The position numbers and the translations under genes were made by a program. A DNA stretch of 64,000 nucleotides from an uncultured Pseudomonadota bacterium. Lineage in GTDB: Bacteria > Pseudomonadota > Alphaproteobacteria > RF32 > CAG-239. Below are positions 10,460 through 48,788 of this stretch, one piece after another (position 1 is the first letter of the stretch; each line of letters begins with the position of its first letter). The notes beneath the pieces were generated by a model that was not told the DNA's origin, did no database searches, and saw only the letters and a list, made by a program, of their open reading frames with translations. The stretch is from assembly GCA_902763905.1 (NCBI GenBank), contig CACWUA010000001.1, forward strand, positions 11-64,010, in the 5' to 3' direction.

Positions 10460-11032
10460 ATGGCTGATGATGATAAATATAAAAGATGTCCGGAATATTG
10501 TCCGTTTTTGAAGGCTAACGGCACGTTTTGTGAATTGTTTCGCCGACCGCTGCAAACTGTTCAAGGAATATCACAAAAATGCGAAGAATGTAAAAATCCG
10601 GAACAGCGTAAAAGTTCTTATAAAGCACTCGGATTGTCTGTAGATGCTCGTGAACAGATATGGCAAAAAGCAATCTTGAAATATAACGAGATAGAACTGG
10701 GTAAAAAACGTGAAGAAGAAGGTGTGCGCAAAAAATTTGCGGCTCTTTTGGAAGATAAATACGGAGCACGTCCTCCGCTTGAAGGTAATGCGTTCTTAAA
10801 GAATTTGATAATCAATCTTTATATGGTGCTTGATGCCACCGAGCGCAGTATGATGGCGGCCATCTTAAACGGGCGCAACGGCGATAGATTGATTGAAGCC
10901 ATTGAACGTGCGCCCAAAGATGAAACTTTACTGCGTAATTTTCGCCGTGAACTTGATGGGCAATTTCAAGAGCATCAGCTGGAAATTAAACGAGAACAGC
11001 AGCAAAGAGACAATATAAATCAGCGTATTTAA
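10460..11032 (+). CDS. Hypothetical protein with an N-terminal Cys cluster (zinc-ribbon-like) and a charged coiled C-terminal half
   Basis: The ORF is 190 aa and a GAGGT Shine-Dalgarno lies 5 nt upstream. The N-terminus reads CPEYC..C..C-x2-C. No family was recognised. Confidence 0.45.
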   Translation: MADDDKYKRCPEYCPFLKANGTFCELFRRPLQTVQGISQKCEECKNPEQRKSSYKALGLSVDAREQIWQKAILKYNEIELGKKREEEGVRKKFAALLEDKYGARPPLEGNAFLKNLIINLYMVLDATERSMMAAILNGRNGDRLIEAIERAPKDETLLRNFRRELDGQFQEHQLEIKREQQQRDNINQRI

Positions 11033-11094
11033 AATATTTGTTGTATTTTTGTCAAATTGGTTTATAATCTATATAAATCAAAGGAGCAATGATA

Positions 11095-14495: not shown

Positions 14496-14665
14496 CACTG
14501 TATTTAAAGAAATTGAATCAAATTTTTAACTTTCTTTAATAAGATTTTGAAAAGACTCGTCAAATTTTGAATGTATGAGCAGTGTATTTAAATAAATATA
14601 TTTGATTTTTGTTTGCAATTTAAAATGACTTGTTTTATGTTAGGCGCAGTTTAAAAGAGGTGAAA

Positions 14666-16513: not shown

Positions 16514-17351
16514 CGTTCAAAATTATTCATATCATAATCACACCGATTTTTCTGACGGCATAGATTCTCTTATCGCCATGGTTAAGCGAGCTAAAGAAAT
16601 CGGCTTTGCCGAACTTGGTATCAGCGATCATTTAATTGTCCACAAAAATATGTATCAAAGTCCGAGTTGGGCTGATATGCAGCAAAAAAGTGCGGCATAT
16701 ATATATAATGCAGATTTTAAAAGTATATTGGATAAGTATCGTTATCACTGTGATGAAATACGCCGGCTTTCACGTAGCGAAAATTTCAAACTCTATGTTG
16801 GTTTTGAGGTCGATTATTTTACCTACGATGGCTGGGAAGAAGAATTTAAATGGTTTGTATCACAATTGGATTATGATTATTTGCAGAGCGGAAATCATTT
16901 TTTTTGCAACGAGAGCTGTGAAAAAATTATAAATATGGCAAACTTCTTACTGCTATGCCAAGATAATCAATTGCAATATAAATATATTGCGCAGCATTTT
17001 TCTATATTAAAAAAAGCGGTAGAAAGCAGAATGTTCAAATTTCTCGCTCATTTTGATTACTTAAAACGATTTTGCGGAAATGCTTATAGATTTGATCTCT
17101 TTAAGAATGATATTGCTGTAGTGTTAGATGGCTTACAGCAAACGCAAACAGCGCTGGAGGTTAGTACTAAAGGATTGCGAAAAGCCGGAGAACTCTACCC
17201 AGGTGCGGAAATTTTGCAAGAAACTGCCAAACGCGATATAGCAGTTATTATCAATGATGACGCGCATTGTGCAGCCGAACTGGGAATGAGCTTTGATAAA
17301 GCTGAGGCTGAGCTCGTAAAATATGGTATCACCAAGCGTTTAAAATTTTAG
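16506..17351 (+). CDS. PHP-domain phosphoesterase (histidinol-phosphatase/TrpH-like family)
   Basis: The N-terminus HNHTDFSDG...GISDH matches PHP metal-binding motifs. The start ATG overlaps the mnmG stop (ATGCTTAG). Confidence 0.6.
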
Positions 17352-17416
17352 TTTAATAACCGAGATATTTTGTTGCAAATTTAAAAGAATCTCTCATACT
17401 ATTCTGAGAGGATAAA

Positions 17417-18043
17417 ATGGATATAAATTTTGAATTGCAAAAATATGCTGTTTCACGTGAAACAATCCAAAAATTAAACAATTTTGTGGAAATTCTTCGC
17501 GATTGGAATAATAAGATGAATCTGGTCAGTAAAAATTCTATGAATGACGTTTGGGAACGTCATGTTTTGGATTCGTTGCAATTGCTGGATTATATTCCAC
17601 AAAATGCAAAGCACTTGGTCGATATTGGCAGCGGAGCAGGATTTCCGGCTGTCGTGCTGGCGATTGCTATGCAAGAAAAAATGCCACAAACTAAAATAAC
17701 AATGGTTGAAAGTATTACTAAAAAAACGGTGTATTTAAACGATGTGTCGCAAAAATTAGGTTTATCGAATGTTGAAATTGAAAATAATCGTGTTGAAAAT
17801 ATTGTATTTAAAAGTGTTGATGTTGTTACGGCACGTGCAGTTGCTGCTTTGGATATTTTGTGCGGGTATGCCTATAAAATAATCGGTAAAAGCGGTAAAT
17901 TGCTCTTTTTGAAGGGTAAAACATATGAACAAGAACACGCCGTGGCGTGTCAAAAATGGGGCTATGATTTAACTGTTTATCCAAACAAATACTGCGGCGA
18001 TGGTGTGTTGATGGAATTGTGTAATTTGAGGAAAAAACAATGA
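17417..18043 (+). CDS. rsmG: 16S rRNA (guanine527-N7)-methyltransferase RsmG (GidB)
   Basis: SAM-binding motif DIGSGAGFPAVVLAI, ~208 aa, located between mnmG and parA. Confidence 0.85.
   Translation: MDINFELQKYAVSRETIQKLNNFVEILRDWNNKMNLVSKNSMNDVWERHVLDSLQLLDYIPQNAKHLVDIGSGAGFPAVVLAIAMQEKMPQTKITMVESITKKTVYLNDVSQKLGLSNVEIENNRVENIVFKSVDVVTARAVAALDILCGYAYKIIGKSGKLLFLKGKTYEQEHAVACQKWGYDLTVYPNKYCGDGVLMELCNLRKKQ
17449..17464 (+). promoter_or_regulatory. parS site (perfect TGTTTCACGTGAAACA)
   Basis: Exact parS palindrome at the 5' end of the rsmG coding sequence. Confidence 0.7.
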
Positions 18044-18807
18044 AGATAATTTCGATAGCAAACCGCAAAGGCGGAGTTGGTAAGACTACCACAACAATTA
18101 ATATAGCCACAGCATTGTCAGCTATAAATAAAAGAGTGATGGTAATTGATTTTGATCCGCAGGGAAATGCCACAACGTCATTGGGAATAGCCAAAAAGAA
18201 AAATCAGTATTCATCATACAGTGTTCTGACCGGAGGCTGCAAGGCGGCAGAAGCTATAGTGCATACTGATATTCCACGGTTCGATATAATGCCGTCATCA
18301 CCTGATCTGGCTGCGGCCGAAATAGAGTTGGTGGACTTATCGGATCGTGAGTTTGTATTAAAAAAAGCACTGCAAAACTTGGCACAAAATTATGACTATA
18401 TACTCATCGATTGCCCGCCGTCCTTAAATCTAATAACCATCAATGCTCTTGTTTGTTCTGACTCGGTGATTGTCCCTTTGCAGTGCGAATTTTTGGCACT
18501 TGAGGGGTTGGCAGATTTGATTAAGAATATTAATGCGATAAAGAGAAATTTTAATCCTAACTTAAAATTACAGGGAATTATTTTGACAATGTTCAGCCGT
18601 CAAAATAATTTGAGCAAAATGATTGAGGCAGATGTGCGTAAATACTTCGGCGATAAAGTTTATCGCACCGTTATTCCGAGGTGCGTTCGCATTGCTGAAG
18701 CACCGTCATTCGGAAAACCGATTTTGGTATATGATTTTAAGAGTACCGGCGCTCAAGCATATATTCAGCTGGCAAAAGAGTTTTTAATGCGTGAAAAGGA
18801 GGCGTAG
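18040..18807 (+). CDS. parA: Chromosome partitioning ATPase ParA (Soj)
   Basis: Deviant Walker A (KIISIANRKGGVGKTTTTINIA) and a 4-nt overlap with the rsmG stop. Confidence 0.9.
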   Translation: MKIISIANRKGGVGKTTTTINIATALSAINKRVMVIDFDPQGNATTSLGIAKKKNQYSSYSVLTGGCKAAEAIVHTDIPRFDIMPSSPDLAAAEIELVDLSDREFVLKKALQNLAQNYDYILIDCPPSLNLITINALVCSDSVIVPLQCEFLALEGLADLIKNINAIKRNFNPNLKLQGIILTMFSRQNNLSKMIEADVRKYFGDKVYRTVIPRCVRIAEAPSFGKPILVYDFKSTGAQAYIQLAKEFLMREKEA

Positions 18808-19704
18808 ATGAACGCAAGCAATAAAAAATTTGGTTTAGGCAGAGGTATAGAAGCCTTATTGGGAGACGACGAACTGAATTTTAATGACATTGATGGCGAT
18901 GATAAAATTGCAAATAACACTGTATTTAAAGATTTGGATACAGATATTTCGGAAGCTGCGGTTGATAATATAATGCCATGTCAGTTTCAGCCGCGAACAG
19001 CGTTTGATGAGGAATCTCTGCAATCATTAAGTGAGTCCATCAAGGAAAAAGGCGTGTTGCAGCCGCTCTTGGTAAGAAAACAGGGTTTGCATTATGAGAT
19101 TGTTGCCGGAGAGCGCCGTTGGCGTGCCGCACAGAAAGCCGGATTAAAAACCGTTCCGATCATTATTAAAGAATTATCGGATCAAGAAACATTGGAAGTT
19201 GCGTTGATAGAAAATCTGCAGCGCGAAAATTTAACTCCGATTGAAGAGGCGGAGGGATTTAATAAACTTATGCAAGAATATGAGTATACGCAAGATGCTT
19301 TAGGTAAAGTTATCGGCAAATCACGCAGTTATGTTGCCAATAGCCTTCGTTTGCTTGTCTTGCCGGCGGATGTTAAACAAATGCTGAATGATGGTTTGCT
19401 GACGGCAGGTCATGCGCGCGCTCTTGTCGGTTTGCCGGCGGCTTCTGAAATAGCAAAAAAAATTGTAACCAAAGGTTTGAATGTGCGTCAGACTGAGCAG
19501 CTTATCGTCGACATCAAAAACAAAAAAACAAAGCCTGAAAAGATAGCTGATAGGGATTTGTTGCAAATAATTGCCGATTTGGAACGTAAATTAAGCCTAA
19601 AAGTCAAAATTAATGCTGGAAAAAACGGAAAAGGTAGTGTAACATTAAAATATAACAATCCGGCGGAGCTGAGCTCTATACTGGATATTTTGGAACAACG
19701 CTGA
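18808..19704 (+). CDS. parB: Chromosome partitioning protein ParB (Spo0J)
   Basis: ParB box GERRWRAAQKAGL, an HTH region and a C-terminal dimerisation region. The gene abuts the parA stop. Confidence 0.9.
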   Translation: MNASNKKFGLGRGIEALLGDDELNFNDIDGDDKIANNTVFKDLDTDISEAAVDNIMPCQFQPRTAFDEESLQSLSESIKEKGVLQPLLVRKQGLHYEIVAGERRWRAAQKAGLKTVPIIIKELSDQETLEVALIENLQRENLTPIEEAEGFNKLMQEYEYTQDALGKVIGKSRSYVANSLRLLVLPADVKQMLNDGLLTAGHARALVGLPAASEIAKKIVTKGLNVRQTEQLIVDIKNKKTKPEKIADRDLLQIIADLERKLSLKVKINAGKNGKGSVTLKYNNPAELSSILDILEQR

Positions 19705-28333: not shown

Positions 28334-30547
28334 TTAGGCTTGTGGAGCGTCCATCTCGAAACCTTCGCTGTCATCCTCCTCGGCGTTGTATTCAATACCC
28401 AATTTGGCCAGCATATCGTCATTGATATCTTCACGCTGTGCCACCACCCAATCCGGCACGTTGGCACACGGCGGGAGTTTAGCCAGTTTAGTCATCTTCT
28501 TATCCAAATACCAACGCGGCGAATCGGCAATAATCGGCCGGTCAATATGACTTTGCATCAGTACCACTTGCTTTAACATCGGCAAACTCAAAAGTTGAGT
28601 CGAGCTGATTACCGGAATACCTTGCAGCTGGTAGTTAACGTTTTTCGCCAGCGGGTTAAAGTCTTTACCAAGTGAACCTTCCGTTCGCGAGAACGAAGAA
28701 ATACGAACAGTCTTGTTTCCTATCATCTTAGAGAAACGCTGTGCCGTAACCTCGTTGTTCTGCGAAAGAATAACTTTGCAGGCGGTAGTAGAAATCACCG
28801 TTTCCAAGTCATCTTTTCCGTATTTACCGGAAATTTGCCCCAAGTCTTGTCCGATTAGGAGGTACGACACTTTTTGACCACGACCTACGGCCGGTCCGTC
28901 AATAATGGCCTTCATTTTCGGCATTTGCGGAAACTCGTCGAGCACAAACAGGGCAGGGAACGGTCCCATTTTGCCGTCGGTACGGTTGACGTGATTCGGC
29001 GGATTGGAAATCAGATAAGAGCTCATCAATTCAATAAAGGTCGAACTGATAACGCCCAAAGCGCGCGCATCAACTTGGTTAACCGACAAATACACAGAAA
29101 TAGGCTTCCATTCACCGGTAATCGGGTCTTTCATACCGCGCAAATCCTTAAATTGCAAATCGGAGAAACTGGTACGCGCCTTAACCGCTTGGTTCTTAAA
29201 TACGTTAATACCGGCAAATGCCGTAGAAAGAATGGAACCGCGCTCCTTATCCGGCGTGTTACTCAAAGTACTCAATTCCGTAATACAGCGCTGAGCATAA
29301 CCGTAGTTGCGAGCCTCTTTGATAGCTTCTTCCAACATATCGTGCGTCGGGTCAGCCATTGCCGCCATTTGATCGCCTTCATCCAAACGACGTTGAATTT
29401 CTTGTGCCGCATTAATTTGCGCCTCAGTAATCCATTCCATAATCATGGCAATGCAGGCTTCACGCCCCATCCACCTTGACGGTAGCAGATTCCACGTACC
29501 GATTGGCAGATAGTTTTCCATGGTTAAAGTGCCGTTTTTTAAGTTTTGAATGGCACGCGGAGCTCCCGGATCACGCATATCCTGATAATATCCTTCAAGC
29601 ACTTCTTTGTCTTTTTCATCAAGTTTGCCCTCATAGATGCGACCGATAAAATAGTCGTTGGCGCGGGCGCGATCACACTTTGAAACCACAAATTGAATAA
29701 ATCCGGTTAAGGCTGCACGGCCGGTTTGTGACCAGTGCGGGTCGGCACCGCCTTTCGGATCTTCTACCAAAATATTGCACATGGAATCCACATACATATC
29801 GCGATCCGGCCCTTGTTCCGGAATACAATTCGGCGACAACGGATTCCAGCTTGGATAATAAATACCTTCACTCGGGTTATCTTCCGCACCCCAGTTAATG
29901 ATAAATACCGGCCCCACCTTGGCACGTGCACCGGAAGTTTTGTAACAAAGCTCCGGTTTCGGGTCATTAATCACCAAACTCAAGCCCTCCGAGTGGAAAA
30001 TCGTCGGCATCACCACACCCACGGTTTTACCGGTACCAGGAGGCGCACAGCACAGGGTTGCCAATGTTTCTTTCAAAAGCAAAAACTTGCCGTCAAATTT
30101 TCCCACCACTTGGCAGAAACCGTCAAATCCCAATAATGGCATCTTTTTTATATCGCGCAAATCGGCAATTTTGGCTTGACCTTGATAGTTGACTTGGAAT
30201 TTGTACGGACTGAAAATGGCACTGATGATTATACCGAGTGGAATTGTTATAAAAGGCAGAAGAGGAATCCATAAACTTAAAGAAAATGGTCCGCGGTGAT
30301 TCCATAATTGTTTCCACCATCTTCCATACATTGTAAACAAATGATTAGGATCATGCATAATAATTGTTAAAAACTTCTGTACCACGGTTGTTGACGACTT
30401 AGATAACCCATGACCTACAACATAAGAAAGAGGTAGACTGAAGATAAATAAGATTATGGTGAGACCTATGCAAATAAACAATGTTATCAACATCCATCGA
30501 ACGGCTTTGTCATATTCTTTCCATTCTTCACCACGATCGTTGGCCAT
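28334..30547 (-). CDS. virD4: Type IV secretion coupling protein VirD4/TraG family ATPase
   Basis: Two N-terminal TM helices, a Walker A (CCAPPGTGKTVGVVMPT), the TraG/VirD4 core and an acidic C-terminal tail (EEDDSEGFEMDAPQA). Confidence 0.85.
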   Translation of the reverse strand: MANDRGEEWKEYDKAVRWMLITLFICIGLTIILFIFSLPLSYVVGHGLSKSSTTVVQKFLTIIMHDPNHLFTMYGRWWKQLWNHRGPFSLSLWIPLLPFITIPLGIIISAIFSPYKFQVNYQGQAKIADLRDIKKMPLLGFDGFCQVVGKFDGKFLLLKETLATLCCAPPGTGKTVGVVMPTIFHSEGLSLVINDPKPELCYKTSGARAKVGPVFIINWGAEDNPSEGIYYPSWNPLSPNCIPEQGPDRDMYVDSMCNILVEDPKGGADPHWSQTGRAALTGFIQFVVSKCDRARANDYFIGRIYEGKLDEKDKEVLEGYYQDMRDPGAPRAIQNLKNGTLTMENYLPIGTWNLLPSRWMGREACIAMIMEWITEAQINAAQEIQRRLDEGDQMAAMADPTHDMLEEAIKEARNYGYAQRCITELSTLSNTPDKERGSILSTAFAGINVFKNQAVKARTSFSDLQFKDLRGMKDPITGEWKPISVYLSVNQVDARALGVISSTFIELMSSYLISNPPNHVNRTDGKMGPFPALFVLDEFPQMPKMKAIIDGPAVGRGQKVSYLLIGQDLGQISGKYGKDDLETVISTTACKVILSQNNEVTAQRFSKMIGNKTVRISSFSRTEGSLGKDFNPLAKNVNYQLQGIPVISSTQLLSLPMLKQVVLMQSHIDRPIIADSPRWYLDKKMTKLAKLPPCANVPDWVVAQREDINDDMLAKLGIEYNAEEDDSEGFEMDAPQA

Positions 30548-30563
30548 TTTGCTTTACTCCACT

Positions 30564-32081
30564 TTATTTTATGTTTTTCAAAACGTTGCGTATATTATCC
30601 AGTTGTTTTTTAGTTACTTTTTCATCAGCCTCGCTGAGAATCTTAGAAAACAGCTTAATTTCCTTCGGTGCACCGCGATTTATGCGTGTAACCTCAATTC
30701 CCATTTCGTTCCATATATCAAACATATCATCAGCATTAATAATATTTGCCATTTGAATAATCACACATGAAGTGATTTTTTGCTCAAATTCGTTTTCATC
30801 GAGTGCGGTCTCAATCAGCTTTTTCACATTATTAAGCTTACAAACCGGTGAAACACGATGACTGCTTTCAGAGAACCACAACGGCTCTTCTCCGTTAAAC
30901 ATCTCCTCATCGGCCAACCAATCACCGCTTTCTTTATCGACTAAACATAAGTAGATATCATTTTGTGAAACACCGACAAAGTCAATAAGTGTACCTTTAA
31001 CCGAAATATTGGTAATAACATCATAATTCTTTTGCAACAATGTTTCATAAACCGGACTGCGTGGCGTATCATTTGTTTTGTTATCCGAATTTCTGGAGCG
31101 CCGTTCACTGCTTCTCTCTTCGTCATCGGTATCACGCTGACGTGAACTGCGCCTAGATGTTTCATCAGATTTACGCGAAGATTTGCGCGAAACTTTATCT
31201 CTGTTGTCGCGTCGATTCGCACGCGGTGATTCAAAGTTTTCTTCATCTTCATCATTATCTTCGTCGTCATCATCATCAAAGTCGTATTTCGGCTTGGAGT
31301 GTTTACTCGGCTGGTTGATTTTCTCTTCATTATCATCCGAATGTTTTTGGGATTTTCTCTCGTTTGTCGGTTTTTTCTTTCCTATATCGGCTTTTTCAAA
31401 GGAGTCGATATCCAAATCGAAATCATCATCATCGTCATCGTCAAATTTGAATAATGCGTGGTCAATTGTGGCGGCCACATCAGTCTTTTTCTTAGCCGTA
31501 GCCGGAGCCGGCGACTGAGCTACCATCGGAGCCGCATAAGACGAACCGGCAACTGCTGCCGCCATCGGTGCGGAAGTAGCCGAATTGCCGTAATCGGAAA
31601 TAGGCACTCGCAAAGTATTAATTCCCGTCGGTCGAATCAACTTATATGATTTACGTTTAACCACTCCATAGCGGTTATTGCCTGTAGATACCGACGAAAG
31701 AGGCGACTTGTCGCTATATTTTTTATAGAGTGTATACGGAAGCTTTATTATATTCCATATAACTTCTTCCCAAGCCACCATGCATAGTGTCCACCAACCG
31801 GTAATCAGCATCGGGAAAAATACAATCATTAAAAGAATAAATGCCCACTCTTTAGGCGCGCGCGGAATCCAACCCGCTTTCCATGTTGTAGCGAATTGAT
31901 GCCAATGATCAGGCCAGAAAATATCAAAATGCCAATTACACAGCATAATTACGCGAATACCCTCTGTGAAGACAATCCCCCACAGGCATCCGACAATTAG
32001 AATTCTAAGAAATACCAATATGGATTTCAACTGCGCACTCCGTAAATTTGCCAATACACTCACTATATTAATAGCACTCAA
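30564..32081 (-). CDS. Hypothetical two-TM membrane protein with poly-Asp/Glu and Arg-Ser-rich disordered tracts (DotM-like position and topology)
   Basis: The ORF is 505 aa and its stop lies 16 nt upstream of the virD4 start. It has two N-terminal hydrophobic helices, low-complexity D7/D5EDNDEDEE and SRKSSRKSDETSRRSSRQRD tracts and a ~150-aa C-terminal globular region. Confidence 0.55.
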   Translation of the reverse strand: MSAINIVSVLANLRSAQLKSILVFLRILIVGCLWGIVFTEGIRVIMLCNWHFDIFWPDHWHQFATTWKAGWIPRAPKEWAFILLMIVFFPMLITGWWTLCMVAWEEVIWNIIKLPYTLYKKYSDKSPLSSVSTGNNRYGVVKRKSYKLIRPTGINTLRVPISDYGNSATSAPMAAAVAGSSYAAPMVAQSPAPATAKKKTDVAATIDHALFKFDDDDDDDFDLDIDSFEKADIGKKKPTNERKSQKHSDDNEEKINQPSKHSKPKYDFDDDDDEDNDEDEENFESPRANRRDNRDKVSRKSSRKSDETSRRSSRQRDTDDEERSSERRSRNSDNKTNDTPRSPVYETLLQKNYDVITNISVKGTLIDFVGVSQNDIYLCLVDKESGDWLADEEMFNGEEPLWFSESSHRVSPVCKLNNVKKLIETALDENEFEQKITSCVIIQMANIINADDMFDIWNEMGIEVTRINRGAPKEIKLFSKILSEADEKVTKKQLDNIRNVLKNIK

Positions 32082-32108
32082 ATATTAAAAAAGTGAATAT
32101 ATTTTTCG

Positions 32109-32585
32109 TTAATTGTTCGATTCTTGTATTTTCTCAATAATTTCTTTGCGAAAATCAGTAACATTTTCGGATTTGGTTTTTTTCTTTTCTTGATCAAGCC
32201 TCTCCTTAATGAACTGATCCAACGATTTTTTTTCTTCTATTTTTAAGTTTTTGATATTAACATCGGGAGCCACATAGCCGTCAAACCCGCTGTTAAAGAT
32301 TTTGTTGAGCGGCACCGTCAGTAATTTCATATACTTAAAGTGATATAATTTATACCAACCGTAAAAACAAAGCGGCACCACTGATAAAACCATTGCAATG
32401 ACAATTAAATCCTTGCCCTGCAAGACATTTCCTCTGTTCCAAAAGTTGGACAAACTGCGATAGAACACCGGCGGCGTGGTATGATAAACCAATAGTATAA
32501 TGAGCTGTACCAAGCCGGCCAGAATGGCCATCCACAAAACACAGGCAACTAACACGCAAATAAAATGAAAAAACTTTTTAATCAT
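32109..32585 (-). CDS. Hypothetical small membrane protein (2 TM) with a charged C-terminus
   Basis: The ORF is 158 aa with two hydrophobic helices and sits in the same operon, 27 nt upstream of the next gene. Confidence 0.45.
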   Translation of the reverse strand: MIKKFFHFICVLVACVLWMAILAGLVQLIILLVYHTTPPVFYRSLSNFWNRGNVLQGKDLIVIAMVLSVVPLCFYGWYKLYHFKYMKLLTVPLNKIFNSGFDGYVAPDVNIKNLKIEEKKSLDQFIKERLDQEKKKTKSENVTDFRKEIIEKIQESNN

Positions 32586-32652
32586 CAGCGGCCTTCTCTT
32601 GTACCCTGCGGTCTGATTTGCTGCATCTCATGCTTTTTATTTATGCGGTTTT

Positions 32653-34695
32653 TCATCCTATCGAGATTAATTTTGCGTTTTTTGTTATTCTCTTTGCTTG
32701 CGGCGTTTTGTTCTTTTTTCCTTCAATATCTCTATCCCATTGCTGTTCTTTTTTATGTCCGGAATTTTCCTCTCGTGCCGCTTCATCCGGTCCCATTTTG
32801 GTGGATTTCTTCGGTTTATTGTTACCTTGCACTTGCGCTCGCTCTCCTTCGCTGGGTGTGCGGTAATGATTGTAGAACTTATCAAACTCGACTTCCTGCG
32901 CTTTCATCTGCTGTTCCAGAACTTTTTTCTTGGCCGGATCTTGTTCGGTATGGTATGCACATTGCAAATCTCTCAGAGTCTTACCCTCACAACAGATATC
33001 TGCATAATATCCACCCAATTCTTTTGCCGCCGAATTGGCAATCTTAAGTTTTTCTTTAGGCGGGATTTCGGCATCCGGAGCAAGATGATGCTCAACTCGA
33101 TAATCATTTTCTTTTTGCTTAAATATGACTGAGGTTGTTTCCATCATATCAAACATTTTAATCAATGTTGCTTTCTGAACATAAGCTGCGGCCTCAGCAT
33201 TGCCGTCCAGCTCTTTATCCGGATTTTTTCGAACATATTCATTGGTCGCAAGATGCGCACACAATTTGACCAAATCATTCTTTTTGCCGTCTTTATGGAT
33301 AGGAAAAACAGTTTCCAATTTTTGGGGATCCTTTTCCAATTCTGTAATTTTTTGCATAAAATAACCCTTATCGGAGGCAAAAATCTCATTCATGGTTTCG
33401 GCAAAATTTTGATGTATTTTCGGATCAAATACCACAAACGGCACACCTTTTTGCGGAGCGCCGATAACAGGCTGCCATTTGTCCGGATTTTTGCCGATAT
33501 TGTTTTGAATGCAGCGCAGCATCGGTTGTAATCTTTGCGGATTTTTCATCAAGTCTCCGAATTTATCGACAAAGTCGGCGCGAGTAGCATCAGCCAGTCG
33601 GCTCATTTGCTGCGCAAAAGCGTTAGCTTCCGGCGAAAGCTCAACCGCAGCGGCATTTTGAGGGCTATTACCACTGTTGCCGGCTTTACCAGCAGCTTTG
33701 GCCGCAGCAGAAGTTCTAACCGGAGCTTGTCCTTCTCCGCATAAATAATCCAAACCGGTATCAAGTGTCTTAAATGCTTTTTGCATAACATAGTTAATTA
33801 AACCGAGAAACCAAACGTTATAAAGGTATTGAATTAAATCTTGTTCTTTTACCGGATCAAAATTAAAATCACCTTTTTTACCGCGTTCGGAATCGCGTTT
33901 AGAATCTTCGAGTTGAGCTGTATTTTCCGCTTTTTCATCGTCATTCGGCTTGTTTTCCGGCGGAGTTTCAGCTGAGATATTGAGTTTGTTGCCATCAGCC
34001 GAGAAATTTAATGTATCTGCCTCATTTTCTGGCAATCCTCCCATTCTTATCGGTTCCGATTCGGATTTTTGTTCTTCTGTGCTCTGATTCAATCCTGACT
34101 TTTTTAAGGATTCATTCAGCGCATTTTGCAAAATAAAAGATTTTTTTGCCAAATCCTTATATTTAAGGCTACGTGGTTTGGAGGCATCAACTGCATTAGC
34201 CGCTTTACTTAAAACTTCATCATAATCCAACTTTGCCAATGTTTCGGAAATATCTATCATCACATTGCTGTTTTTATCAAGCAGTTCCAGAGTGTTTTTG
34301 TCTTTAATGCGTTTTTGCTTAAATTCGGCGGCGTACGTATTAAGCGCAACAATTGTCATAATATTTTTGCCGCTTTGCGGATTCTTTTCCGTTAAAAATT
34401 GTACCATTTGCTCGTTGCTTATTTTTCCATCTTCATTAAGCTCTTGCATGGCTTTTAGGGCATTTTTGATACCTGTCAGATTCTGGAATCCGAGTTTTTT
34501 GGTTTCCTCTTTACTCCCGTTCGGAATAGGAGCAGGAAAGATCGCGGCTTTCAGAGCATCGGGCAAATGACCGATACCATATCTAAGCATACCGGCTTTT
34601 ATCAGCTCCATGTCCATATTTACTTCTTTATTCAATTCTGCGCAGAAGAGTTTAAAATCATCAGCTTCATTTGCATTTTTTATATCTTCAGCCAT
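32653..34695 (-). CDS. Hypothetical 680-aa soluble protein, acidic and Lys-rich, no recognised domain
   Basis: Long ORF on the same strand within the virD4 operon. It has no TM segment and no known motifs; codon usage is consistent with its neighbours. Confidence 0.55.
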   Translation of the reverse strand: MAEDIKNANEADDFKLFCAELNKEVNMDMELIKAGMLRYGIGHLPDALKAAIFPAPIPNGSKEETKKLGFQNLTGIKNALKAMQELNEDGKISNEQMVQFLTEKNPQSGKNIMTIVALNTYAAEFKQKRIKDKNTLELLDKNSNVMIDISETLAKLDYDEVLSKAANAVDASKPRSLKYKDLAKKSFILQNALNESLKKSGLNQSTEEQKSESEPIRMGGLPENEADTLNFSADGNKLNISAETPPENKPNDDEKAENTAQLEDSKRDSERGKKGDFNFDPVKEQDLIQYLYNVWFLGLINYVMQKAFKTLDTGLDYLCGEGQAPVRTSAAAKAAGKAGNSGNSPQNAAAVELSPEANAFAQQMSRLADATRADFVDKFGDLMKNPQRLQPMLRCIQNNIGKNPDKWQPVIGAPQKGVPFVVFDPKIHQNFAETMNEIFASDKGYFMQKITELEKDPQKLETVFPIHKDGKKNDLVKLCAHLATNEYVRKNPDKELDGNAEAAAYVQKATLIKMFDMMETTSVIFKQKENDYRVEHHLAPDAEIPPKEKLKIANSAAKELGGYYADICCEGKTLRDLQCAYHTEQDPAKKKVLEQQMKAQEVEFDKFYNHYRTPSEGERAQVQGNNKPKKSTKMGPDEAAREENSGHKKEQQWDRDIEGKKNKTPQAKRITKNAKLISIG

Positions 34696-34775
34696 TAAAG
34701 TATCTCCTTCAAAGCAACTTGATTTTTATTAATTGTATCATAAAAAAATGTTTTTGTCCACAACTATTTCTTTGC

Positions 34776-35738
34776 CTAAACTTTTACTTTTTTCATAAAT
34801 TTACCGATTTCAATATTGACGCGAATGCCATCTTTGGGAGTAACCTTTACCAATCCGAAAAAACGCGGTTTTATTTTGGCAAATTCAATCGGGGCAAAAA
34901 TTGCCGGATTGGTGGTTAGAGCCTTAAATGCGCCGTCAACATCTTTTTGTGCCACACGGAAATAATTGCTGACAAGGCGTTCGGCATCTATCGGAAAATT
35001 TTTTTTCTTTACGGCTTCAACCAAACGTTTTTGACGTTCTTTGCGTTCTAAATATTCTTCATAAAGCATTCGTTTTATGTGTTTTTCCTGATATTTAAGC
35101 AATTTAGCCTGATAAGTCAGTTCACAGCTTTCCATGTCAATCAAGATCTCGACATACGAGATTACGGCTAATTGCAAGTCCTGATCGCGTAAAGTCTCGG
35201 CAAAATTCAAAAATTCTTCATCGGTGGCAGAAACGTTAAATCCACCGACACTGTCCGGATAAATCTCACGCAATACATTCCAGCCGGCAACTAAGTCAGT
35301 CGCCAATAAATGTCCTATACTAGGTTTATAGTTCGGGTACAAAAAATCAATTTCAAACTCCCAGTTTAATGAAGGTATACTCTTGGCCGCACAAATCTTA
35401 TCAATAGAACCGCGATAATTTATATAAGCCTGCGCTAATTCGGATTCTTCACTTCTCAATTCTGGTTTCTTTTCTTCATCTTCAATAACTGTGCGAGCCT
35501 GCTCAAAAGTTTCAGCCAGTTCTTTTTCAAATGCATCTGAAGCGGCATCGTTTTCCGTCTGTCCTTGCTGACTCAAAGCCGGTTCTTCCGGTTTTTCTGC
35601 CGGTGCGGTTACAGCGGTTTCATCATCTTCCTCTAAATCATCAACTTTAGAGTTAATAAAGCTGTTTAAAAGCTTTTCAAAATCATCACCTTGGCTAAAT
35701 TCATTTTCATCACTCATAAAATCAGTACTCCTTTGCAA
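34776..35738 (-). CDS. Hypothetical 320-aa protein with a strongly acidic N-terminal third
   Basis: First gene of the minus-strand operon, divergent from rluD. No recognised domain. Confidence 0.5.
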   Translation of the reverse strand: MQRSTDFMSDENEFSQGDDFEKLLNSFINSKVDDLEEDDETAVTAPAEKPEEPALSQQGQTENDAASDAFEKELAETFEQARTVIEDEEKKPELRSEESELAQAYINYRGSIDKICAAKSIPSLNWEFEIDFLYPNYKPSIGHLLATDLVAGWNVLREIYPDSVGGFNVSATDEEFLNFAETLRDQDLQLAVISYVEILIDMESCELTYQAKLLKYQEKHIKRMLYEEYLERKERQKRLVEAVKKKNFPIDAERLVSNYFRVAQKDVDGAFKALTTNPAIFAPIEFAKIKPRFFGLVKVTPKDGIRVNIEIGKFMKKVKV

Positions 35739-44603: not shown

Positions 44604-45602
44604 CTAAATTCCTTCCAAAACATCATCAATTGATTTTTCTTTGACCTGTTGCTCGATAATGTGTCCTGAATTAATCGTTACACCATAGTCGAGATCCTGA
44701 TGTTCTTCCTGTTTTTCTTCAATATTATGCCGTGCAAAGGACGGAGGAACCGTTCCGGCATAAAAATTTTCTTCCTCAGTAACCATTCGCAAAATTTCTT
44801 TCTTTACGGCATTGGCATAATCCGGTTTGGAGAACTCTTCCTGAAAAATTTCCATATATTGAGAAAGTCGCGGTGTTACTTTGGATATAGCAATAAATAA
44901 CGGAATTTTAAATAGCGGTTGATGAGAATAAGCCAAAAAACTGCCTAATCCGTAATGGCTGGCCATCATACGATTATAATACAGTCCACCCAGCATATAA
45001 TCGGCATCTCCCATAATAAGTTTTTCATAACCTTCGTAAGGAGTATCTACGTATTCTACACCCAATTCTTTTATTTGCTGCGCTATAAAATCGCTTATTT
45101 GTTCGGTTTTGGATATTACACCGCGCAAATTTTTCAATTCATTGCGGTTCTTAATTTCAGAGGCTTTTTCCTGTATTGTAATCAGATGTATCGGGTTGGC
45201 AATACTCGCCGGAAAAATCAACTGTAAGCCATTGTATAGATGAGTGTTTGAATAAGCACCGATATATAAATGATATTTACCGCTGCGAACAGCCAGTGTC
45301 AGCATTTTGGGATCTAATTCATCTGCCGTGAGTAATTGAGGCTCTATATTGATACCGTGTTTTCTTAAAACATCTATTGTCGGCTGCAATAAAGCACTCT
45401 CCAAATCAAGCATCGAACTGTTTTTTCTTTTTGAAACATAGCGCGAAAAAGGAGGATAATCTACCAACCCTACGGTTAAAAGAGGTGTGTTGAAATAATT
45501 TTCCACTTTTACCATACCTGAGGTTTCTTCAGCCGAAACGGATGCAATAAAACCGAAAATTAACAAAAAGATAAAAAAACAAAAATTTTTCATTGTCCGC
45601 AC
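44604..45602 (-). CDS. Periplasmic solute-binding-like protein (signal peptide; PBP type-2 fold suspected)
   Basis: Signal peptide MKNFCFFIFLLIFGFIASVSA, ~330 aa. Weak resemblance to amino-acid/transglycosylase-associated SBP folds. Confidence 0.45.
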   Translation of the reverse strand: MRTMKNFCFFIFLLIFGFIASVSAEETSGMVKVENYFNTPLLTVGLVDYPPFSRYVSKRKNSSMLDLESALLQPTIDVLRKHGINIEPQLLTADELDPKMLTLAVRSGKYHLYIGAYSNTHLYNGLQLIFPASIANPIHLITIQEKASEIKNRNELKNLRGVISKTEQISDFIAQQIKELGVEYVDTPYEGYEKLIMGDADYMLGGLYYNRMMASHYGLGSFLAYSHQPLFKIPLFIAISKVTPRLSQYMEIFQEEFSKPDYANAVKKEILRMVTEEENFYAGTVPPSFARHNIEEKQEEHQDLDYGVTINSGHIIEQQVKEKSIDDVLEGI

Positions 45603-45732
45603 CTGTTTTATATCTCCGACATTGCCATATAAGTGTTTTAAGCATAAATAAATTGTGTTAAAAAGATTTTAACCGATTGCATAAAAACAATTATTTTGTA
45701 ACATAATACAAAAGAAAAATGAAAAGTACAAG

Positions 45733-46515
45733 ATGATAAATATAAATAAAAACTTATTTTTGCAGCGAAAGAACAATATAATTGCCATAACCTCGGGTGT
45801 GGGCAGTATGGGCAAAACATGGCTTGCGGTTACATTATCGCACGCATTGAATATGCTGCAACAATCTGTTTTGCTGTTTGATGCGGATAATGGTTTACTG
45901 AATGTTTCCGCACAGATTGAACAAACGGCGCCTTTTTCACTGAATGATGTGGTATCATCGGCGGCAACGCTCAATCAAGCAATAATCTCCGTTAATCGGC
46001 GCAAATTTGATGCTATATCAGGTGATACGGGAGGTAATATATTGGAGAGTACTCCTGTCGGTCGTCTGCAAATTTTGCGGGATGACATAATGTGTCTTGC
46101 TTGCGATTATGATTATTTATTGTTGGATTTGCCGGCATCGGAAAAGATAGCACAAAATATTTTGCCGCCTGAAAGCAATTTGATTTTGGTGTGTACCAAA
46201 GAACCTTCAAATTTGGTATCTACATATAAGTTTTTGCAGACCGCGGCAGCTGCCGAGCGTTATAAGAACATGCAGATTATCGTTAATTATGCTCAATCTT
46301 ATGAGGAAGGTTTGCAAACCTATAATATTTTACGTCGCGCTTGTGAAGAATATATTACACAAACCCCTTTATTATTGGGAGTTGTCCGCCGTGATACCAG
46401 AGTGAGAGATGCTATCCGTAATCGCTTTCTGTTGCTGAACCGCTATCCGAATTCCGAGGCCGCGGCCGATATTATGCAAATTGCTCGCAAAATACTGCAA
46501 AAAGGAGAAAAATAG
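45733..46515 (+). CDS. Degenerate ParA/MinD-family P-loop ATPase (orphan)
   Basis: IIAITSGVGSMGKTWLAVTL is a P-loop that departs from the deviant Walker A KGGxGK[ST]. Downstream it has the MinD/ParA-like LLFDADNGL pattern. Confidence 0.55.
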   Translation: MININKNLFLQRKNNIIAITSGVGSMGKTWLAVTLSHALNMLQQSVLLFDADNGLLNVSAQIEQTAPFSLNDVVSSAATLNQAIISVNRRKFDAISGDTGGNILESTPVGRLQILRDDIMCLACDYDYLLLDLPASEKIAQNILPPESNLILVCTKEPSNLVSTYKFLQTAAAAERYKNMQIIVNYAQSYEEGLQTYNILRRACEEYITQTPLLLGVVRRDTRVRDAIRNRFLLLNRYPNSEAAADIMQIARKILQKGEK

Positions 46516-47660
46516 TGTCGAATTTTGATGCTCTTGGGTATTATGCGATTTTGGAGGTTGATTATGCGGAAGATATTTCCGTAATAAAAAAACAGTATTA
46601 TCAAAAAGCAAAATATTGGCATCCTGATCATAATACCAGTCCCAAAGCTCAGGATATGTTTCAGATGACGTCGGTAGCATACGGTATTCTGCAAAATCCG
46701 CGAACCAGATTGATTTATGACTTGCTGTCATGCATTTACACTACCAAAGATTTTCCACTTATCGGATCATTGAAAATTTATAAAAATCAAAAAGACAATG
46801 ATGATAAAGCACTTCGTGTCTTAAAGCAGCGTATTTGTGTCGGTAAAAGTTTGCAGGAACGTAAAGATATTTGCAATATTCGTGAAGCCGGCAATATGGT
46901 GTTGACCACTGCAATAAACAACTGGCTTAAAGGTTGGTGGCACAAAAACGGATTTAATCGAACATTGTCTGCGATTCGCTATAATATGCAAACAGTGTCT
47001 GCCGATGATAAAGATAACTTGAAATTGCTGATACATAACGCAGTGGCTTATGAACAGGAAAACAACAAGGAAATGGCATGGATTTATGCCAAACAGGCCG
47101 AATCAATGCAAATTACCGATGAGCATACACGGTTATATATCGGTAAGTTTATAGAAATGCTGGATTTTCGTCCGGATAAAAAAGTTGTTTTGCCGTACTG
47201 GAATTCCACCGAATTAAAACGCAAACAGATGATTTTCCCGCTGATAGTTTTTCTATGTGTATTTTTATCGGCCTTATATGTTATGGAGCGCAACGGCATA
47301 TTTGTACGCGGCACAGCTACGGAAAACGAGTATTATGAAGTGCGGCAAATCGGAGGATATCTTGTGCCGTCTGATATGGTGGAATCTCGCATTATAAAAA
47401 CAGGCAGCAATCCTTATGAACAAGATGATATTTGGCATATTGCGGATGATTGCGTAATTTATTACGGTCCGGATACACGTTACTCTCCACTGCGTCATGC
47501 GTATAAAATGCAAACCGTTCGGATTGTCGGATATACTGTTGACAAGAAGTGGTATCAGATTATTATGGATGACGGAGCTATCGGATATGTCCGTCAGAAT
47601 AATTTAGAAAAAGGTTTCGGCACATCGGTACCAGCCGGAAGCCATGTTTTTAAGGGATAG
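46515..47660 (+). CDS. J-domain protein with a central TM helix and C-terminal SH3b-like domain
   Basis: A GTG start overlaps the upstream TAG stop. The J domain carries an HPD motif (YYQKAKYWHPDHN). A TM segment (IFPLIVFLCVFLSALYV) is followed by a C-terminal WYQIIMDDGAIGYVRQNNLE SH3_3-like motif. Confidence 0.6.
   Translation: MSNFDALGYYAILEVDYAEDISVIKKQYYQKAKYWHPDHNTSPKAQDMFQMTSVAYGILQNPRTRLIYDLLSCIYTTKDFPLIGSLKIYKNQKDNDDKALRVLKQRICVGKSLQERKDICNIREAGNMVLTTAINNWLKGWWHKNGFNRTLSAIRYNMQTVSADDKDNLKLLIHNAVAYEQENNKEMAWIYAKQAESMQITDEHTRLYIGKFIEMLDFRPDKKVVLPYWNSTELKRKQMIFPLIVFLCVFLSALYVMERNGIFVRGTATENEYYEVRQIGGYLVPSDMVESRIIKTGSNPYEQDDIWHIADDCVIYYGPDTRYSPLRHAYKMQTVRIVGYTVDKKWYQIIMDDGAIGYVRQNNLEKGFGTSVPAGSHVFKG

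Positions 47661-48788
<1,128 letters not shown>

What the first reader, a model, noticed from the sequence alone, without database searches (positions are those of the whole stretch)
45733..47660. Translationally coupled pair: degenerate ParA/MinD-like ATPase plus a J-domain–TM–SH3b membrane protein
The ATPase has an altered P-loop (SGVGSMGKT instead of KGGxGKT) and no partner parB/minE. The downstream gene starts with a GTG overlapping the ATPase stop. It encodes an N-terminal DnaJ J-domain (HPD), one TM helix and a C-terminal bacterial SH3-like domain. I do not recognise this architecture, which would recruit cytoplasmic DnaK to a membrane site and carry an extracytoplasmic SH3b. Paired with a positioning-type ATPase, it suggests a localisation or chaperone-tethering module.
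Basis: partly seen in the sequence, partly recalled or inferred. Interest (0 to 1): 0.55.

Follow-up and report, generated by a model that had tools for sequence, protein, structure and literature searches.

The report
Relocated flagellar FlhG ATPase with membrane J-protein
This coupled gene pair descends from a module that sits in flagellar gene clusters of related gut bacteria: a flagellum-placement ATPase (FlhG) that has lost a key catalytic lysine, plus a previously undescribed membrane co-chaperone, now stranded among housekeeping genes and still under selection.

Summary
ORF 45733-46515 is a MinD/ParA-fold ATPase with Walker A SGVGSMGKT. ORF 46515-47660 starts at a GTG overlapping the TAG stop and encodes a J domain (HPD), a conserved cytoplasmic domain, one TM helix and a periplasmic SH3b domain.

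The ATPase is not a generic ParA/MinD. By sequence profile, predicted fold and tree it is an FlhG/FleN-type flagellar regulator. In related gut Alphaproteobacteria and more distant lineages, orthologues of both genes lie in flagellar clusters as flhA-flhF-flhG-(X)-J, and there FlhG has the canonical SGKGGVGKTW.

In the window's clade (about 50 species-level rumen/gut MAGs) five things changed:
- The pair sits between a GST/unknown gene and tgt.
- Gene X is gone.
- The signature lysine is lost.
- The N-terminus carries a new motif.
- The ATPase evolved much faster, yet both genes stay under purifying selection (dN/dS about 0.05-0.14).

Most likely this is a repurposed flagellar-placement module: an envelope-anchored J-protein that recruits DnaK and works with an FlhG-derived ATPase. 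The closest functional precedents are Vibrio SflA and HubP, which are not homologous outside the J domain.

I could not test whether this clade still has flagella. The J-TM-SH3b family and its FlhG linkage appear undescribed in the literature I searched.

The parts
45603..45732 (+). AT-rich intergenic region between the divergent unknown gene (44604-45602, minus strand) and the ATPase; presumed promoter region of the operon
   Evidence: Sequence read. The promoter scan is not above chance, so the promoter is inferred from gene arrangement only.
45733..46515 (+). FlhG/FleN-derived MinD/ParA-fold ATPase, 260 aa, lacking the signature lysine
   Evidence: ORF. Pfam and NCBIfam hits. The family profile hits FleN 5j1j at 2.7e-32 and FlhG 4rz2 at 2e-27, against MinD at 2e-13. 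AF2 model pLDDT 86.9, with top Foldseek hits FlhG/FleN at TM 0.81-0.85. Nested within alphaproteobacterial FlhG in the NJ tree. dN/dS 0.05-0.12.
45733..45765 (+). Clade-specific conserved N-terminal peptide MINxDKNLFLQ, predicted disordered
   Evidence: L8, F9 and L10 are conserved in at least 90% of 72 homologues. It replaces the EELKIMPRG..PRS.RKGRN N-terminus of flagellar-cluster FlhG. pLDDT is about 50 for residues 1-10.
45793..45819 (+). Degenerate deviant Walker A, SGVGSMGKT (canonical FlhG: SGKGGVGKT)
   Evidence: Alignments; locus table. K28 and T29 are invariant and the signature-Lys position is V/I/L/F/A/E. 79 of 80 flhF-linked FlhGs keep SGKGGVGKT.
46503..46517 (+). Translational-coupling junction: AGGAG Shine-Dalgarno, TAG stop of the ATPase overlapping the GTG start of the J-protein
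   Evidence: Sequence. The overlap is conserved across the derived clade and in the flagellar-cluster loci L121 and L123.
46515..47660 (+). Bitopic inner-membrane J-domain protein, 381 aa (J - cytoplasmic domain - TM - SH3b)
   Evidence: ORF. 184 homologue clusters. AF2 model pLDDT 89.5. dN/dS 0.09-0.14.
46539..46730 (+). J domain (residues 9-72) with invariant HPD at residues 36-38 (nt 46620-46628)
   Evidence: Pfam DnaJ 3e-15. H36, P37 and D38 are invariant in 74 sequences. Foldseek rmsd of about 1 A to solved J domains.
46737..47204 (+). Highly conserved cytoplasmic domain (residues 75-230): extended segment, beta-hairpin (a degenerate zinc ribbon), five helices, and a W..GWW motif. No known family.
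   Evidence: This is the most conserved part of the protein. No Pfam, NCBIfam or PDB sequence hit and no Foldseek hit. Distant relatives carry CxxC...CxxC at the hairpin.
47229..47291 (+). Single transmembrane helix (about residues 239-259)
   Evidence: The best 19-mer has mean hydropathy 2.7 in 74/74 homologues. K+R averages 3.4 on the N side and 1.9 on the C side, and 61/74 sequences have more on the N side. AF2 helix spans 231-259.
47340..47612 (+). Periplasmic beta-rich domain containing a bacterial SH3 (SH3b) fold
   Evidence: Pfam SH3_3 at 318-364. Profile hits to many multi-SH3_3 proteins over these columns. Foldseek matches to NlpC/P60 and endolysin SH3b domains.

Best explanation
The pair is a relocated and modified copy of a flagellar gene module, flhG-(X)-J, that is conserved in flagellar clusters of gut Alphaproteobacteria and more distant relatives.

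Shown:
- The ATPase is FlhG/FleN-type by sequence, fold and phylogeny.
- The J-TM-SH3b gene follows flhG in at least six independent flagellar-cluster lineages.
- In the window's clade the pair has no flagellar neighbours, has lost gene X and the signature lysine, has a new N-terminal motif and evolved faster, yet both genes remain under purifying selection and are translationally coupled.
- The J-protein is N-in/C-out, with an intact HPD J domain in the cytoplasm and an SH3b domain in the periplasm.

Inferred mechanism: the J-protein is held at a particular envelope site by its SH3b domain binding peptidoglycan. Its conserved cytoplasmic domain docks the FlhG-derived ATPase or a shared client. 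Its J domain recruits DnaK-ATP and triggers hydrolysis there, so that a membrane-proximal assembly is remodelled or released.

The ATPase keeps the nucleotide-binding residues (K28, T29, D50, D132) but lacks the lysine that completes the partner's active site in ATP-sandwich dimers. It therefore most likely acts as an ATP-binding switch or scaffold with little or no dimer-stimulated hydrolysis.

I think it more likely than not that this clade uses the module independently of FlhF, for a non-canonical and possibly non-flagellar role in polar or envelope-site organisation.
For: FlhG identity:
- Profile versus PDB: FleN 2.7e-32 and FlhG 2e-27, against MinD 2e-13.
- AF2 plus Foldseek: top hits 4rz2/4rz3/5j1j at TM 0.81-0.85.
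- NJ tree: the derived ATPases are sister to the gut flagellar FlhGs, inside alphaproteobacterial FlhG.

Ancestral linkage:
- L053: flhA-flhF-flhG(SGKGGVGKTW)-X533-J.
- 30 or more metagenome loci show the same order.
- L123: fliG-fliH-flhF-flhG-J with overlapping stop/start.
- L151, L153, L154, L155 and L067 are distant lineages with flhG-X-J or che/fliIJ neighbours.

Linkage survives three different contexts (tgt context, flagellar context, L063).

Change in the window clade:
- Walker A table.
- Identity to distant FlhGs is 34-38%, against 50-61% for flagellar FlhG.
- dN/dS is 0.05-0.12, against 0.014-0.042.
- N-terminal motif swap.

Still functional: invariant K28, T29, D50, D132 and HPD.

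Topology.

Precedents:
- SflA is a membrane DnaJ-family inhibitor of flagellation.
- HubP is a peptidoglycan-anchored single-pass protein that binds FlhG.
- FlhG Walker A mutants lose function (PMC7226244).
Against: No direct evidence that the two proteins interact. Rate covariation between them was no higher than with an unrelated neighbour.

I could not determine whether the window's clade has flagellar genes elsewhere.

The ATPase could be a paralogue coexisting with a canonical flhG.

One flhF-linked FlhG (L126) also lacks the signature lysine (K to H), so its loss does not by itself prove loss of flagellar function.

SH3b-peptidoglycan binding and DnaK recruitment are inferred from domain identity only.

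The pair is followed without a terminator by tgt and other housekeeping genes, so operon membership gives no functional hint.
Confidence: 0.5

Rival explanations
1. Unchanged flagellar role. The clade is flagellated, flhF and the other flagellar genes lie elsewhere in the genome, and the pair still sets flagellar number and position as FlhG does, with the J-protein as its lineage-specific partner. Only the gene order changed.
For: The orthologous pair is flagellar in every related lineage sampled. Both genes are under strong purifying selection. One flhF-linked FlhG (L126) tolerates K to H at the signature position. JGI pipelines label homologues 'FlhG'.
Against: The signature lysine is lost or displaced throughout the derived clade but kept in 79/80 flhF-linked FlhGs, and Vibrio FlhG K31A is non-functional (PMC7226244).

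Gene X is lost, the N-terminal peptide is replaced and the rate is accelerated.

The 64-kb window has no flagellar gene. No flhF locus without an adjacent flhG turned up in the metagenome scan.

The genome is small, about 1.5 Mb. A reduced-genome gut alphaproteobacterial order is reported to lack flagella (PMC12306168), though I could not verify that this clade belongs to it.
Confidence: 0.3
2. Division-site or cell-pole regulator. The FlhG-derived ATPase has taken on a MinD/MipZ-like role in placing the division machinery. The J-TM-periplasmic-domain protein would act like cyanobacterial ZipN/Ftn2 or plant ARC6, which are J-domain, single-pass division proteins. This is one specific version of the repurposing idea.
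For: The domain order (N-terminal J, cytoplasmic domain, TM, extracytoplasmic domain) is the same as in ZipN/ARC6 (my own knowledge of those families, not tested here). FlhG influences division-site choice in Campylobacter (my own knowledge). No minC or minE lies next to the pair, and the canonical ParA is a separate gene.
Against: No sequence or fold similarity to ZipN/ARC6 outside the J domain; Pfam finds only DnaJ and SH3_3, and there is no PDB hit. The locus has no division gene. I could not check whether Min or MipZ systems exist in the genome.
Confidence: 0.12
3. No functional partnership. The J-protein is a general membrane-anchored co-chaperone (DjlA-like housekeeping) that merely shares an operon with a decaying FlhG remnant.
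For: The operon continues into unrelated housekeeping genes (tgt, LOG-like, ABC exporter) without a terminator. Rate covariation is not specific.
Against: The adjacency and order flhG-(X)-J are kept across very distant lineages and three different genomic contexts. Stop/start overlaps are conserved. The ATPase has dN/dS of 0.05-0.12 and invariant nucleotide-binding residues, so it is not decaying.
Confidence: 0.07

Closest known systems
FlhG (YlxH/MinD2/MotR) and FleN, MinD/ParA-type ATPases that control flagellar number and position
   Same: Best sequence-profile and structural match. Phylogenetically nested among alphaproteobacterial FlhGs. Orthologues in sister lineages lie directly after flhF. 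The Walker A lysine, Walker A' and Walker B aspartates are conserved.
   Different: The signature lysine of the deviant Walker A is replaced (SGVGSMGKT). There is no flhF or flhA neighbour. The N-terminal peptide is different and newly conserved. There is no C-terminal extension after the last core helix, though other alphaproteobacterial FlhGs share this. Evolution is faster and selection 2-4 times more relaxed.
SflA of Vibrio alginolyticus (single-pass membrane DnaJ-family inhibitor of flagellation)
   Same: A bitopic inner-membrane protein with a cytoplasmic J domain and a periplasmic protein-interaction domain, tied to the FlhF/FlhG system (PMC7226244). It is the only described membrane J-protein in flagellar placement that I found.
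   Different: The domain order is the reverse: SflA is N-out with a C-terminal J domain. Its periplasmic domain is TPR/Sel1-like, not SH3b. SflA is reported as Vibrio-specific and is not encoded in a flagellar cluster. There is no homology outside the J domain.
HubP / FimV polar landmark proteins
   Same: A single-pass membrane protein with a periplasmic peptidoglycan-binding domain and a cytoplasmic platform. In Vibrio it recruits FlhG and other ParA-like ATPases to the pole (PMC7226244). This is the proposed logic for SH3b plus the cytoplasmic domain here.
   Different: HubP uses LysM, is N-out, is very large (1444 aa) with acidic repeats, and has no J domain. It is not homologous.
ZipN/Ftn2 (cyanobacteria) and ARC6 (chloroplasts)
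   Same: The same order of parts: N-terminal J(-like) domain, cytoplasmic/stromal domain, one TM, C-terminal extracytoplasmic domain. These work alongside a MinD-type system (my own knowledge).
   Different: No detectable similarity beyond the J domain. They act in division, and nothing here links the pair to division.
DjlA, DjlB/DjlC and TopJ (other specialised bacterial J-proteins)
   Same: Class C J-proteins that tether DnaK-type chaperones to a membrane or a polar organelle. TopJ models are among the NCBIfam hits to the J domain.
   Different: DjlA has an N-terminal TM and a C-terminal J domain. None of them has the conserved middle domain or an SH3b domain. The hits cover the J domain only and fall far below the family cut-offs.

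Membership tests
FlhG/FleN subfamily of MinD/ParA ATPases | Closer in sequence and fold to FlhG/FleN than to MinD, ParA/Soj or BcsQ | tested here: met
   hmmsearch of the family profile against PDB gives FleN 2.7e-32 and FlhG 2e-27, against MinD 2e-13 and Soj 1.5e-7. The top seven Foldseek hits are FlhG/FleN, TM 0.81-0.85.
FlhG/FleN subfamily of MinD/ParA ATPases | Phylogenetic placement among bona fide (flhF-linked) FlhGs | tested here: met
   In the NJ tree the derived clade is sister to the gut flagellar FlhGs and lies inside alphaproteobacterial FlhG. This is a distance tree without support values.
FlhG/FleN subfamily of MinD/ParA ATPases | Deviant Walker A with signature lysine (xKGGxGK[ST]) | tested here: not met
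   The motif is SGVGSMGKT; the lysine is absent in 72/72 close homologues. 79/80 flhF-linked FlhGs have SGKGGVGKT.
FlhG/FleN subfamily of MinD/ParA ATPases | Nucleotide-binding and catalytic core (Walker A K/T, Walker A' Asp, Walker B Asp) | tested here: met
   G27, K28, T29, D50 and D132 are invariant in 72 sequences.
FlhG/FleN subfamily of MinD/ParA ATPases | Gene next to flhF / within a flagellar cluster | tested here: not met
   The window neighbours are the unknown secreted protein/GST upstream and tgt downstream. The same holds in about 50 derived-clade loci. The feature is met only in sister and distant lineages.
FlhG/FleN subfamily of MinD/ParA ATPases | C-terminal amphipathic membrane-targeting helix | tested here: not met
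   The protein ends 6 residues after the last core helix, whereas FleN continues for about 30 residues. Other alphaproteobacterial FlhGs end the same way, so this does not discriminate within the class.
FlhG/FleN subfamily of MinD/ParA ATPases | ATP-dependent dimerisation, ATPase activity, and regulation of FlhF/FliM/FleQ | not testable with these tools
   Needs biochemistry and genetics.
MinD (septum site-determining protein) | Reaches curated MinD model scores; minC/minE neighbours | tested here: not met
   TIGR01968 scores 54 bits against a cut-off of 212.9, and TIGR01969 scores 78 against 201.75. There is no minC or minE in the locus.
ParA chromosome/plasmid partition ATPase | Adjacent parB or centromere-binding partner | tested here: not met
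   The downstream gene is the J-protein. A canonical parA-parB pair lies at 18040-19704.
J-domain proteins (class C / type III) | J domain with HPD motif | tested here: met
   Pfam DnaJ 3e-15. HPD is invariant in 74 homologues and in 14 superfamily representatives. About 1 A rmsd to solved J domains.
DnaJ/CbpA (class A/B J-proteins) | G/F region, CXXCXGXG zinc-finger domain, DnaJ C-terminal domains | tested here: not met
   Only the J domain matches. The true DnaJ of this genome is at 2272-3402.
SflA | N-out topology with periplasmic TPR/SLR domain and C-terminal cytoplasmic J domain | tested here: not met
   Here the J domain is N-terminal, the topology is N-in/C-out and the periplasmic domain is SH3b. 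The SflA description comes from PMC7226244.
SflA | Functional connection to FlhF/FlhG-controlled flagellation | tested here: inconclusive
   Gene linkage to flhF-flhG in relatives suggests it. There are no functional data, and linkage to flhF is absent in the window.
Bacterial SH3 (SH3b / SH3_3) | SH3b fold and sequence profile | tested here: met
   SH3_3 scores 22.3 bits, below the gathering score of 27. However, the family profile hits dozens of multi-SH3_3 proteins over the same columns, and Foldseek matches SH3b domains of 3npf, 4r0k and 4krt.
ZipN/Ftn2/ARC6 | Homology of the non-J regions (FtsZ-binding region, ARC6-type C-terminal domain) | tested here: not met
   No Pfam family other than DnaJ and SH3_3. 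No PDB sequence or fold match for the middle domain.

The most novel reading that the evidence does not exclude
A flagellar placement module (FlhG plus a dedicated membrane J-protein) outlived the loss of flagella in a reduced-genome gut alphaproteobacterial clade and was rewired. The ATPase gave up dimer-stimulated hydrolysis and gained an N-terminal KNLFLQRK-type peptide, a hydrophobic core flanked by basic residues and so the kind of motif DnaK binds. The ATPase would then be handed to DnaK by its own partner at a peptidoglycan-anchored site. That would make a chaperone-driven, rather than ATPase-cycle-driven, positioning switch for some non-flagellar polar or envelope structure.
Probability: 0.25. 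Interest if true: 0.75.

Novelty: new variant of a known kind. Interest (0 to 1): 0.55.

Why it matters
How FlhG finds the membrane or pole, and how it is reset, is understood only in a few gamma-proteobacteria (HubP) and Firmicutes (its own amphipathic helix). In Alphaproteobacteria it is largely open.

The data here point to an undescribed, widely conserved J-domain membrane protein, and a second unknown protein X, encoded directly after flhG. That suggests Hsp70 recruitment is a built-in part of flagellar placement in these lineages. It also gives SflA, so far regarded as a Vibrio curiosity, a possible broader counterpart.

The window's clade adds a natural experiment: the same pair kept under selection after losing its flagellar neighbours and the catalytic signature lysine. 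If the clade is aflagellate, it is a clear case of a positioning ATPase and co-chaperone pair being re-used.

The immediate practical value is an annotation correction (FlhG-like, not ParA/MinD or BcsQ) and a defined new protein family to test.

Tried and rejected
1. I tested whether the missing C-terminal membrane-targeting helix correlates with presence of the J-protein. Rejected: alphaproteobacterial FlhGs without a J neighbour also end at the last core helix.
2. Evolutionary rate covariation (partial Mantel) between the ATPase and J was uninformative. r = 0.37, lower than either gene's value with the unrelated neighbour unk332 (0.52-0.53).
3. An FlhA homologue search meant to show whether the derived clade has flagella returned only about 95%-identical 'Azospirillum sp. 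47_25' sequences.
4. An FlhF-profile scan of metagenomes looked for flhF loci without flhG. None was found; all 80 have an adjacent flhG. This is weak negative evidence only.
5. I tried to link the low-GC flagellar contigs to the derived clade through shared housekeeping genes. None are shared.
6. I tried to assign the clade to a GTDB order via supplements. There is no taxonomy below 'Proteobacteria', only a genome size of about 1.47 Mb for RUG10838 and a tree showing the two derived subclades as sisters.
8. PADLOC gave no defence-system hits, and a PDB sequence search of the non-J part found nothing.
9. I considered AF2 on a fused ATPase-linker-J construct and did not run it. The tool returns no PAE or contacts, so an interface could not be judged.
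10. Promoter and terminator scans were not above chance.
Full report
**1. Observation**

The two ORFs are real and lie at the stated coordinates. The ATPase is 45733..46515 (260 aa, ATG start). The J-protein is 46515..47660 (381 aa, GTG start).

The junction is AAAGGAGAAAAATAGTG. The TAG stop and the GTG start share one base, and an AGGAG lies 7 nt upstream of the GTG.

Pfam and NCBIfam confirm a MinD/ParA-fold ATPase: CbiA, AAA_31, BcsQ and ParA models, all far below the curated MinD cut-offs. They also confirm a J domain (residues 9-69, 3e-15) and a weak SH3_3 match (318-364).

An AF2 model of the J-protein (pLDDT 89.5) has these parts:
- a J domain at residues 9-72;
- an extended segment;
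- a beta-hairpin at 101-120;
- five helices at 122-216;
- a TM helix at 231-259;
- a beta-rich C-terminal domain at 276-366.

Foldseek matches the ends to solved J domains (about 1 A rmsd) and to SH3b domains of NlpC/P60 enzymes and an endolysin. The middle domain matches nothing.

All 74 aligned homologues have a single strongly hydrophobic segment. K+R averages 3.4 on its N side and 1.9 on its C side.

**2. Family conservation**

Both proteins have large families, 184 and 331 clusters at 90% identity. All come from uncultured gut or rumen Alphaproteobacteria, with matching contig lengths.

In the J-protein:
- HPD is invariant.
- The cytoplasmic region 75-230 is the best conserved part. Its motifs are LKIYKNQ, ALRVLKQ, KDICN..EA, NWLKGWW, DNLKLLIHNAVAY and MAWIYAKQA.
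- The TM sequence is variable.
- The SH3b core is conserved.

In the ATPase, G27, K28, T29, D50 and D132 are invariant. The signature-lysine position of the deviant Walker A is V/I/L/F/A/E in every member.

**3. What the ATPase is**

A profile of the family hits FleN (2.7e-32) and FlhG (2e-27) in the PDB, well ahead of MinD (2e-13) and Soj.

The AF2 model (pLDDT 86.9, pTM 0.87) has FlhG 4rz2/4rz3 and FleN 5j1j/8p53 as its top structural neighbours, at TM 0.81-0.85.

The window also holds a canonical parA-parB pair at 18040-19704. The finding's ATPase is therefore not the partition ParA.

**4. Related loci**

A scan of one genome per GTDB species gave 61 loci in 61 assemblies, all gut, rumen or insect-gut Alphaproteobacteria. 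The nearest is goat-rumen MAG RGIG3536, at 95-97% identity.

The ATPase lies upstream of the J gene in all of them. There are two arrangements.

- **Arrangement A (the window's).** The order is GST and a secreted unknown on the minus strand, then ATPase-J-tgt-LOG-ABC. The Walker A is degenerate: SG[VILFA]GSMGKTW in the window-type subclade, and SGTKADGKTW or AGTKGIGKTW in a second, deeper subclade.
- **Arrangement B.** The order is flhA-flhF-flhG-X-J. FlhG has the canonical SGKGGVGKTW, and X is an unknown 533-aa protein.

A further locus, L063, has ATPase-J in yet another context.

An FlhF-profile scan of metagenomes gave 80 flhF loci:
- All have an adjacent flhG, and 79 carry SGKGGVGKT. L126 has K to H.
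- Every gut alphaproteobacterial contig that extends far enough carries X and J downstream.
- In L121 and L123, J follows flhG directly with overlapping stop and start.
- In L123 the order is fliG, fliH-like, flhF, flhG, J.

More distant J-family members carry a CxxC...CxxC zinc ribbon where the window protein has its hairpin. Their contexts are:
- L151: fliN, sigma-54 activator, flhA, flhF, flhG, X, J, J2, with fliJ-fliI opposite.
- L154: flhF, flhG, X, J.
- L155: flhG, X, J ... fliJ, fliI.
- L153: fliG ... flhA, flhG-like, X, J.
- L067: cheY, cheB, cheR, J, J, with fliJ-fliI opposite.
- L149: a non-flagellar context.

The module flhG-(X)-J is therefore ancestral and flagellar, and the window's arrangement is derived.

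**5. What changed in the window's clade**

- In an NJ tree the arrangement-A ATPases form one clade. It is sister to the gut flagellar FlhGs and lies inside alphaproteobacterial FlhG, but on much longer branches.
- Flagellar FlhG (L053) is 50-61% identical to distant alphaproteobacterial FlhGs. The window ATPase is only 34-38% identical to them, and 43% to its sister clade.
- A published rumen MAG tree also places the two arrangement-A subclades as sisters.
- dN/dS is 0.05-0.12 for the ATPase and 0.09-0.14 for J within the clade. That compares with 0.014-0.042 for flagellar FlhG and 0.01-0.04 for tgt. Both genes are functional, but the ATPase is less constrained than a working FlhG.
- The basic N-terminus of flagellar FlhG (EELKIMPRG..PRS.RKGRN) is replaced by a short, strongly conserved MINxDKNLFL motif, predicted disordered.
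- Gene X is absent.
- The stop/start overlap of the pair is kept throughout.

**6. Mechanism**

These points are shown:
- the ATPase is of FlhG origin;
- linkage to the J-protein is conserved;
- the J domain is intact;
- the topology is N-in/C-out;
- the periplasmic domain is SH3b;
- both genes are under purifying selection.

The rest is inferred. The SH3b domain would anchor the protein to peptidoglycan at a defined site. The conserved cytoplasmic domain would dock the ATPase or a shared client. The J domain would recruit DnaK to remodel or release that assembly.

The ATPase keeps its nucleotide-binding residues but lacks the lysine that reaches across the dimer in MinD/ParA ATPases. [quoted passage not shown] The catalytic D60A mutant still binds ATP and has only a slight effect (PMC7226244). 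I therefore expect the window ATPase to be an ATP-binding scaffold or switch rather than a cycling ATPase.

The same review supplies two functional precedents:
- SflA is a single-pass DnaJ-family membrane protein that suppresses flagellation and localises with flagella.
- HubP is a LysM-anchored single-pass protein whose cytoplasmic part binds FlhG.

Neither is homologous to the present protein outside the J domain, and both have the opposite orientation.

**7. Open question: flagella**

I could not establish whether the window's clade is flagellated.

- The 64-kb window has no flagellar or chemotaxis gene.
- A window-type genome, RUG10838, is 92% complete at about 1.47 Mb.
- One paper reports that the reduced-genome gut order Rs-D84 lacks flagella. 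Some of its members carry F0F1 ATPase and an H+-PPase, as the window does (PMC12306168).
- That paper also says Rs-D84 lacks fructose-bisphosphate aldolase, which the window has. I could not assign the clade to Rs-D84.

The loss of the signature lysine, of X, of the flagellar N-terminus and of all flagellar neighbours makes a changed role more likely than not. An unchanged flagellar role with flhF elsewhere remains a serious rival, at about 0.3.

**8. Novelty**

No Pfam, NCBIfam, PADLOC or PDB entry covers the J-protein's middle domain. Two full-text searches found no paper on a J-domain protein in alphaproteobacterial flhFG clusters.

The ATPase is a new variant of FlhG. The J-protein is an undescribed family whose nearest functional analogues are SflA and HubP.

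I rate the finding as a new variant of a known kind, with interest 0.55.

Noticed in passing
L053 4175-5776; L151 5751-7640; L153 5478-7001; L154 3476-5125; L155 1418-2995: An unknown protein X (507-629 aa; no Pfam or NCBIfam hit; low-complexity N-terminal half and a conserved C-terminal ~200 aa) always sits between flhG and the J gene in flagellated lineages. Its stop overlaps the J start. It is absent from the window's clade and from L121/L123.
   Followed up: partly
window 44604-45602 (minus strand): A 332-aa protein with a signal peptide and a 'VDYPPF' motif, with no hit in Pfam, NCBIfam or PADLOC. It is the divergent upstream neighbour of the pair in every derived-clade locus, and its evolutionary rate covaries with both genes as strongly as they do with each other.
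   Followed up: partly
window 28334-35738 (minus strand): A TraG/VirD4-type type IV secretion coupling protein is followed by four ORFs (505, 158, 680 and 320 aa) with no Pfam hits, in a stretch where GC skew is reversed. This may be a remnant of an integrated conjugative element.
   Followed up: no
window 8545-13023: Three consecutive ORFs (593, 190 and 644 aa) between polA and mnmE have no Pfam match.
   Followed up: no
window 45733-48788 versus L010: Against the closest relative (RGIG3536), synonymous divergence is 0.20-0.22 for the ATPase and J genes but 0.87 for the adjacent tgt. This suggests mosaic ancestry or recombination at the J|tgt boundary.
   Followed up: no
L126 531-1334: An flhF-adjacent FlhG with histidine at the signature-lysine position (SGHGGVGKTW). 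It is the only exception among the 80 flhF-linked FlhGs.
   Followed up: no
L153 2573-5477: A flagellar cluster in which flhA is followed directly by the flhG-like ATPase, with no flhF between them, and then by X and J.
   Followed up: no
L067 5613-8049; L151 7675-9862: Two tandem J-domain/TM/SH3-type paralogues lie next to fliJ-fliI in distant lineages. These versions keep a four-cysteine zinc ribbon that the window protein has lost; only C120 remains, and it is invariant.
   Followed up: partly
window 47539-47566: A near-consensus sigma-70-like promoter (TTGACA-16-TATTAT, 11/12) lies inside the 3' end of the J gene, about 100 nt before tgt. The scan as a whole is not above chance.
   Followed up: no
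window 301-3402 and 13155-19704: The canonical dnaJ (2272-3402) follows typA rather than dnaK. The mnmE-mnmG-(PHP)-rsmG-parA-parB block is the gene set often found near the replication origin, which suggests the window lies close to the origin.
   Followed up: no
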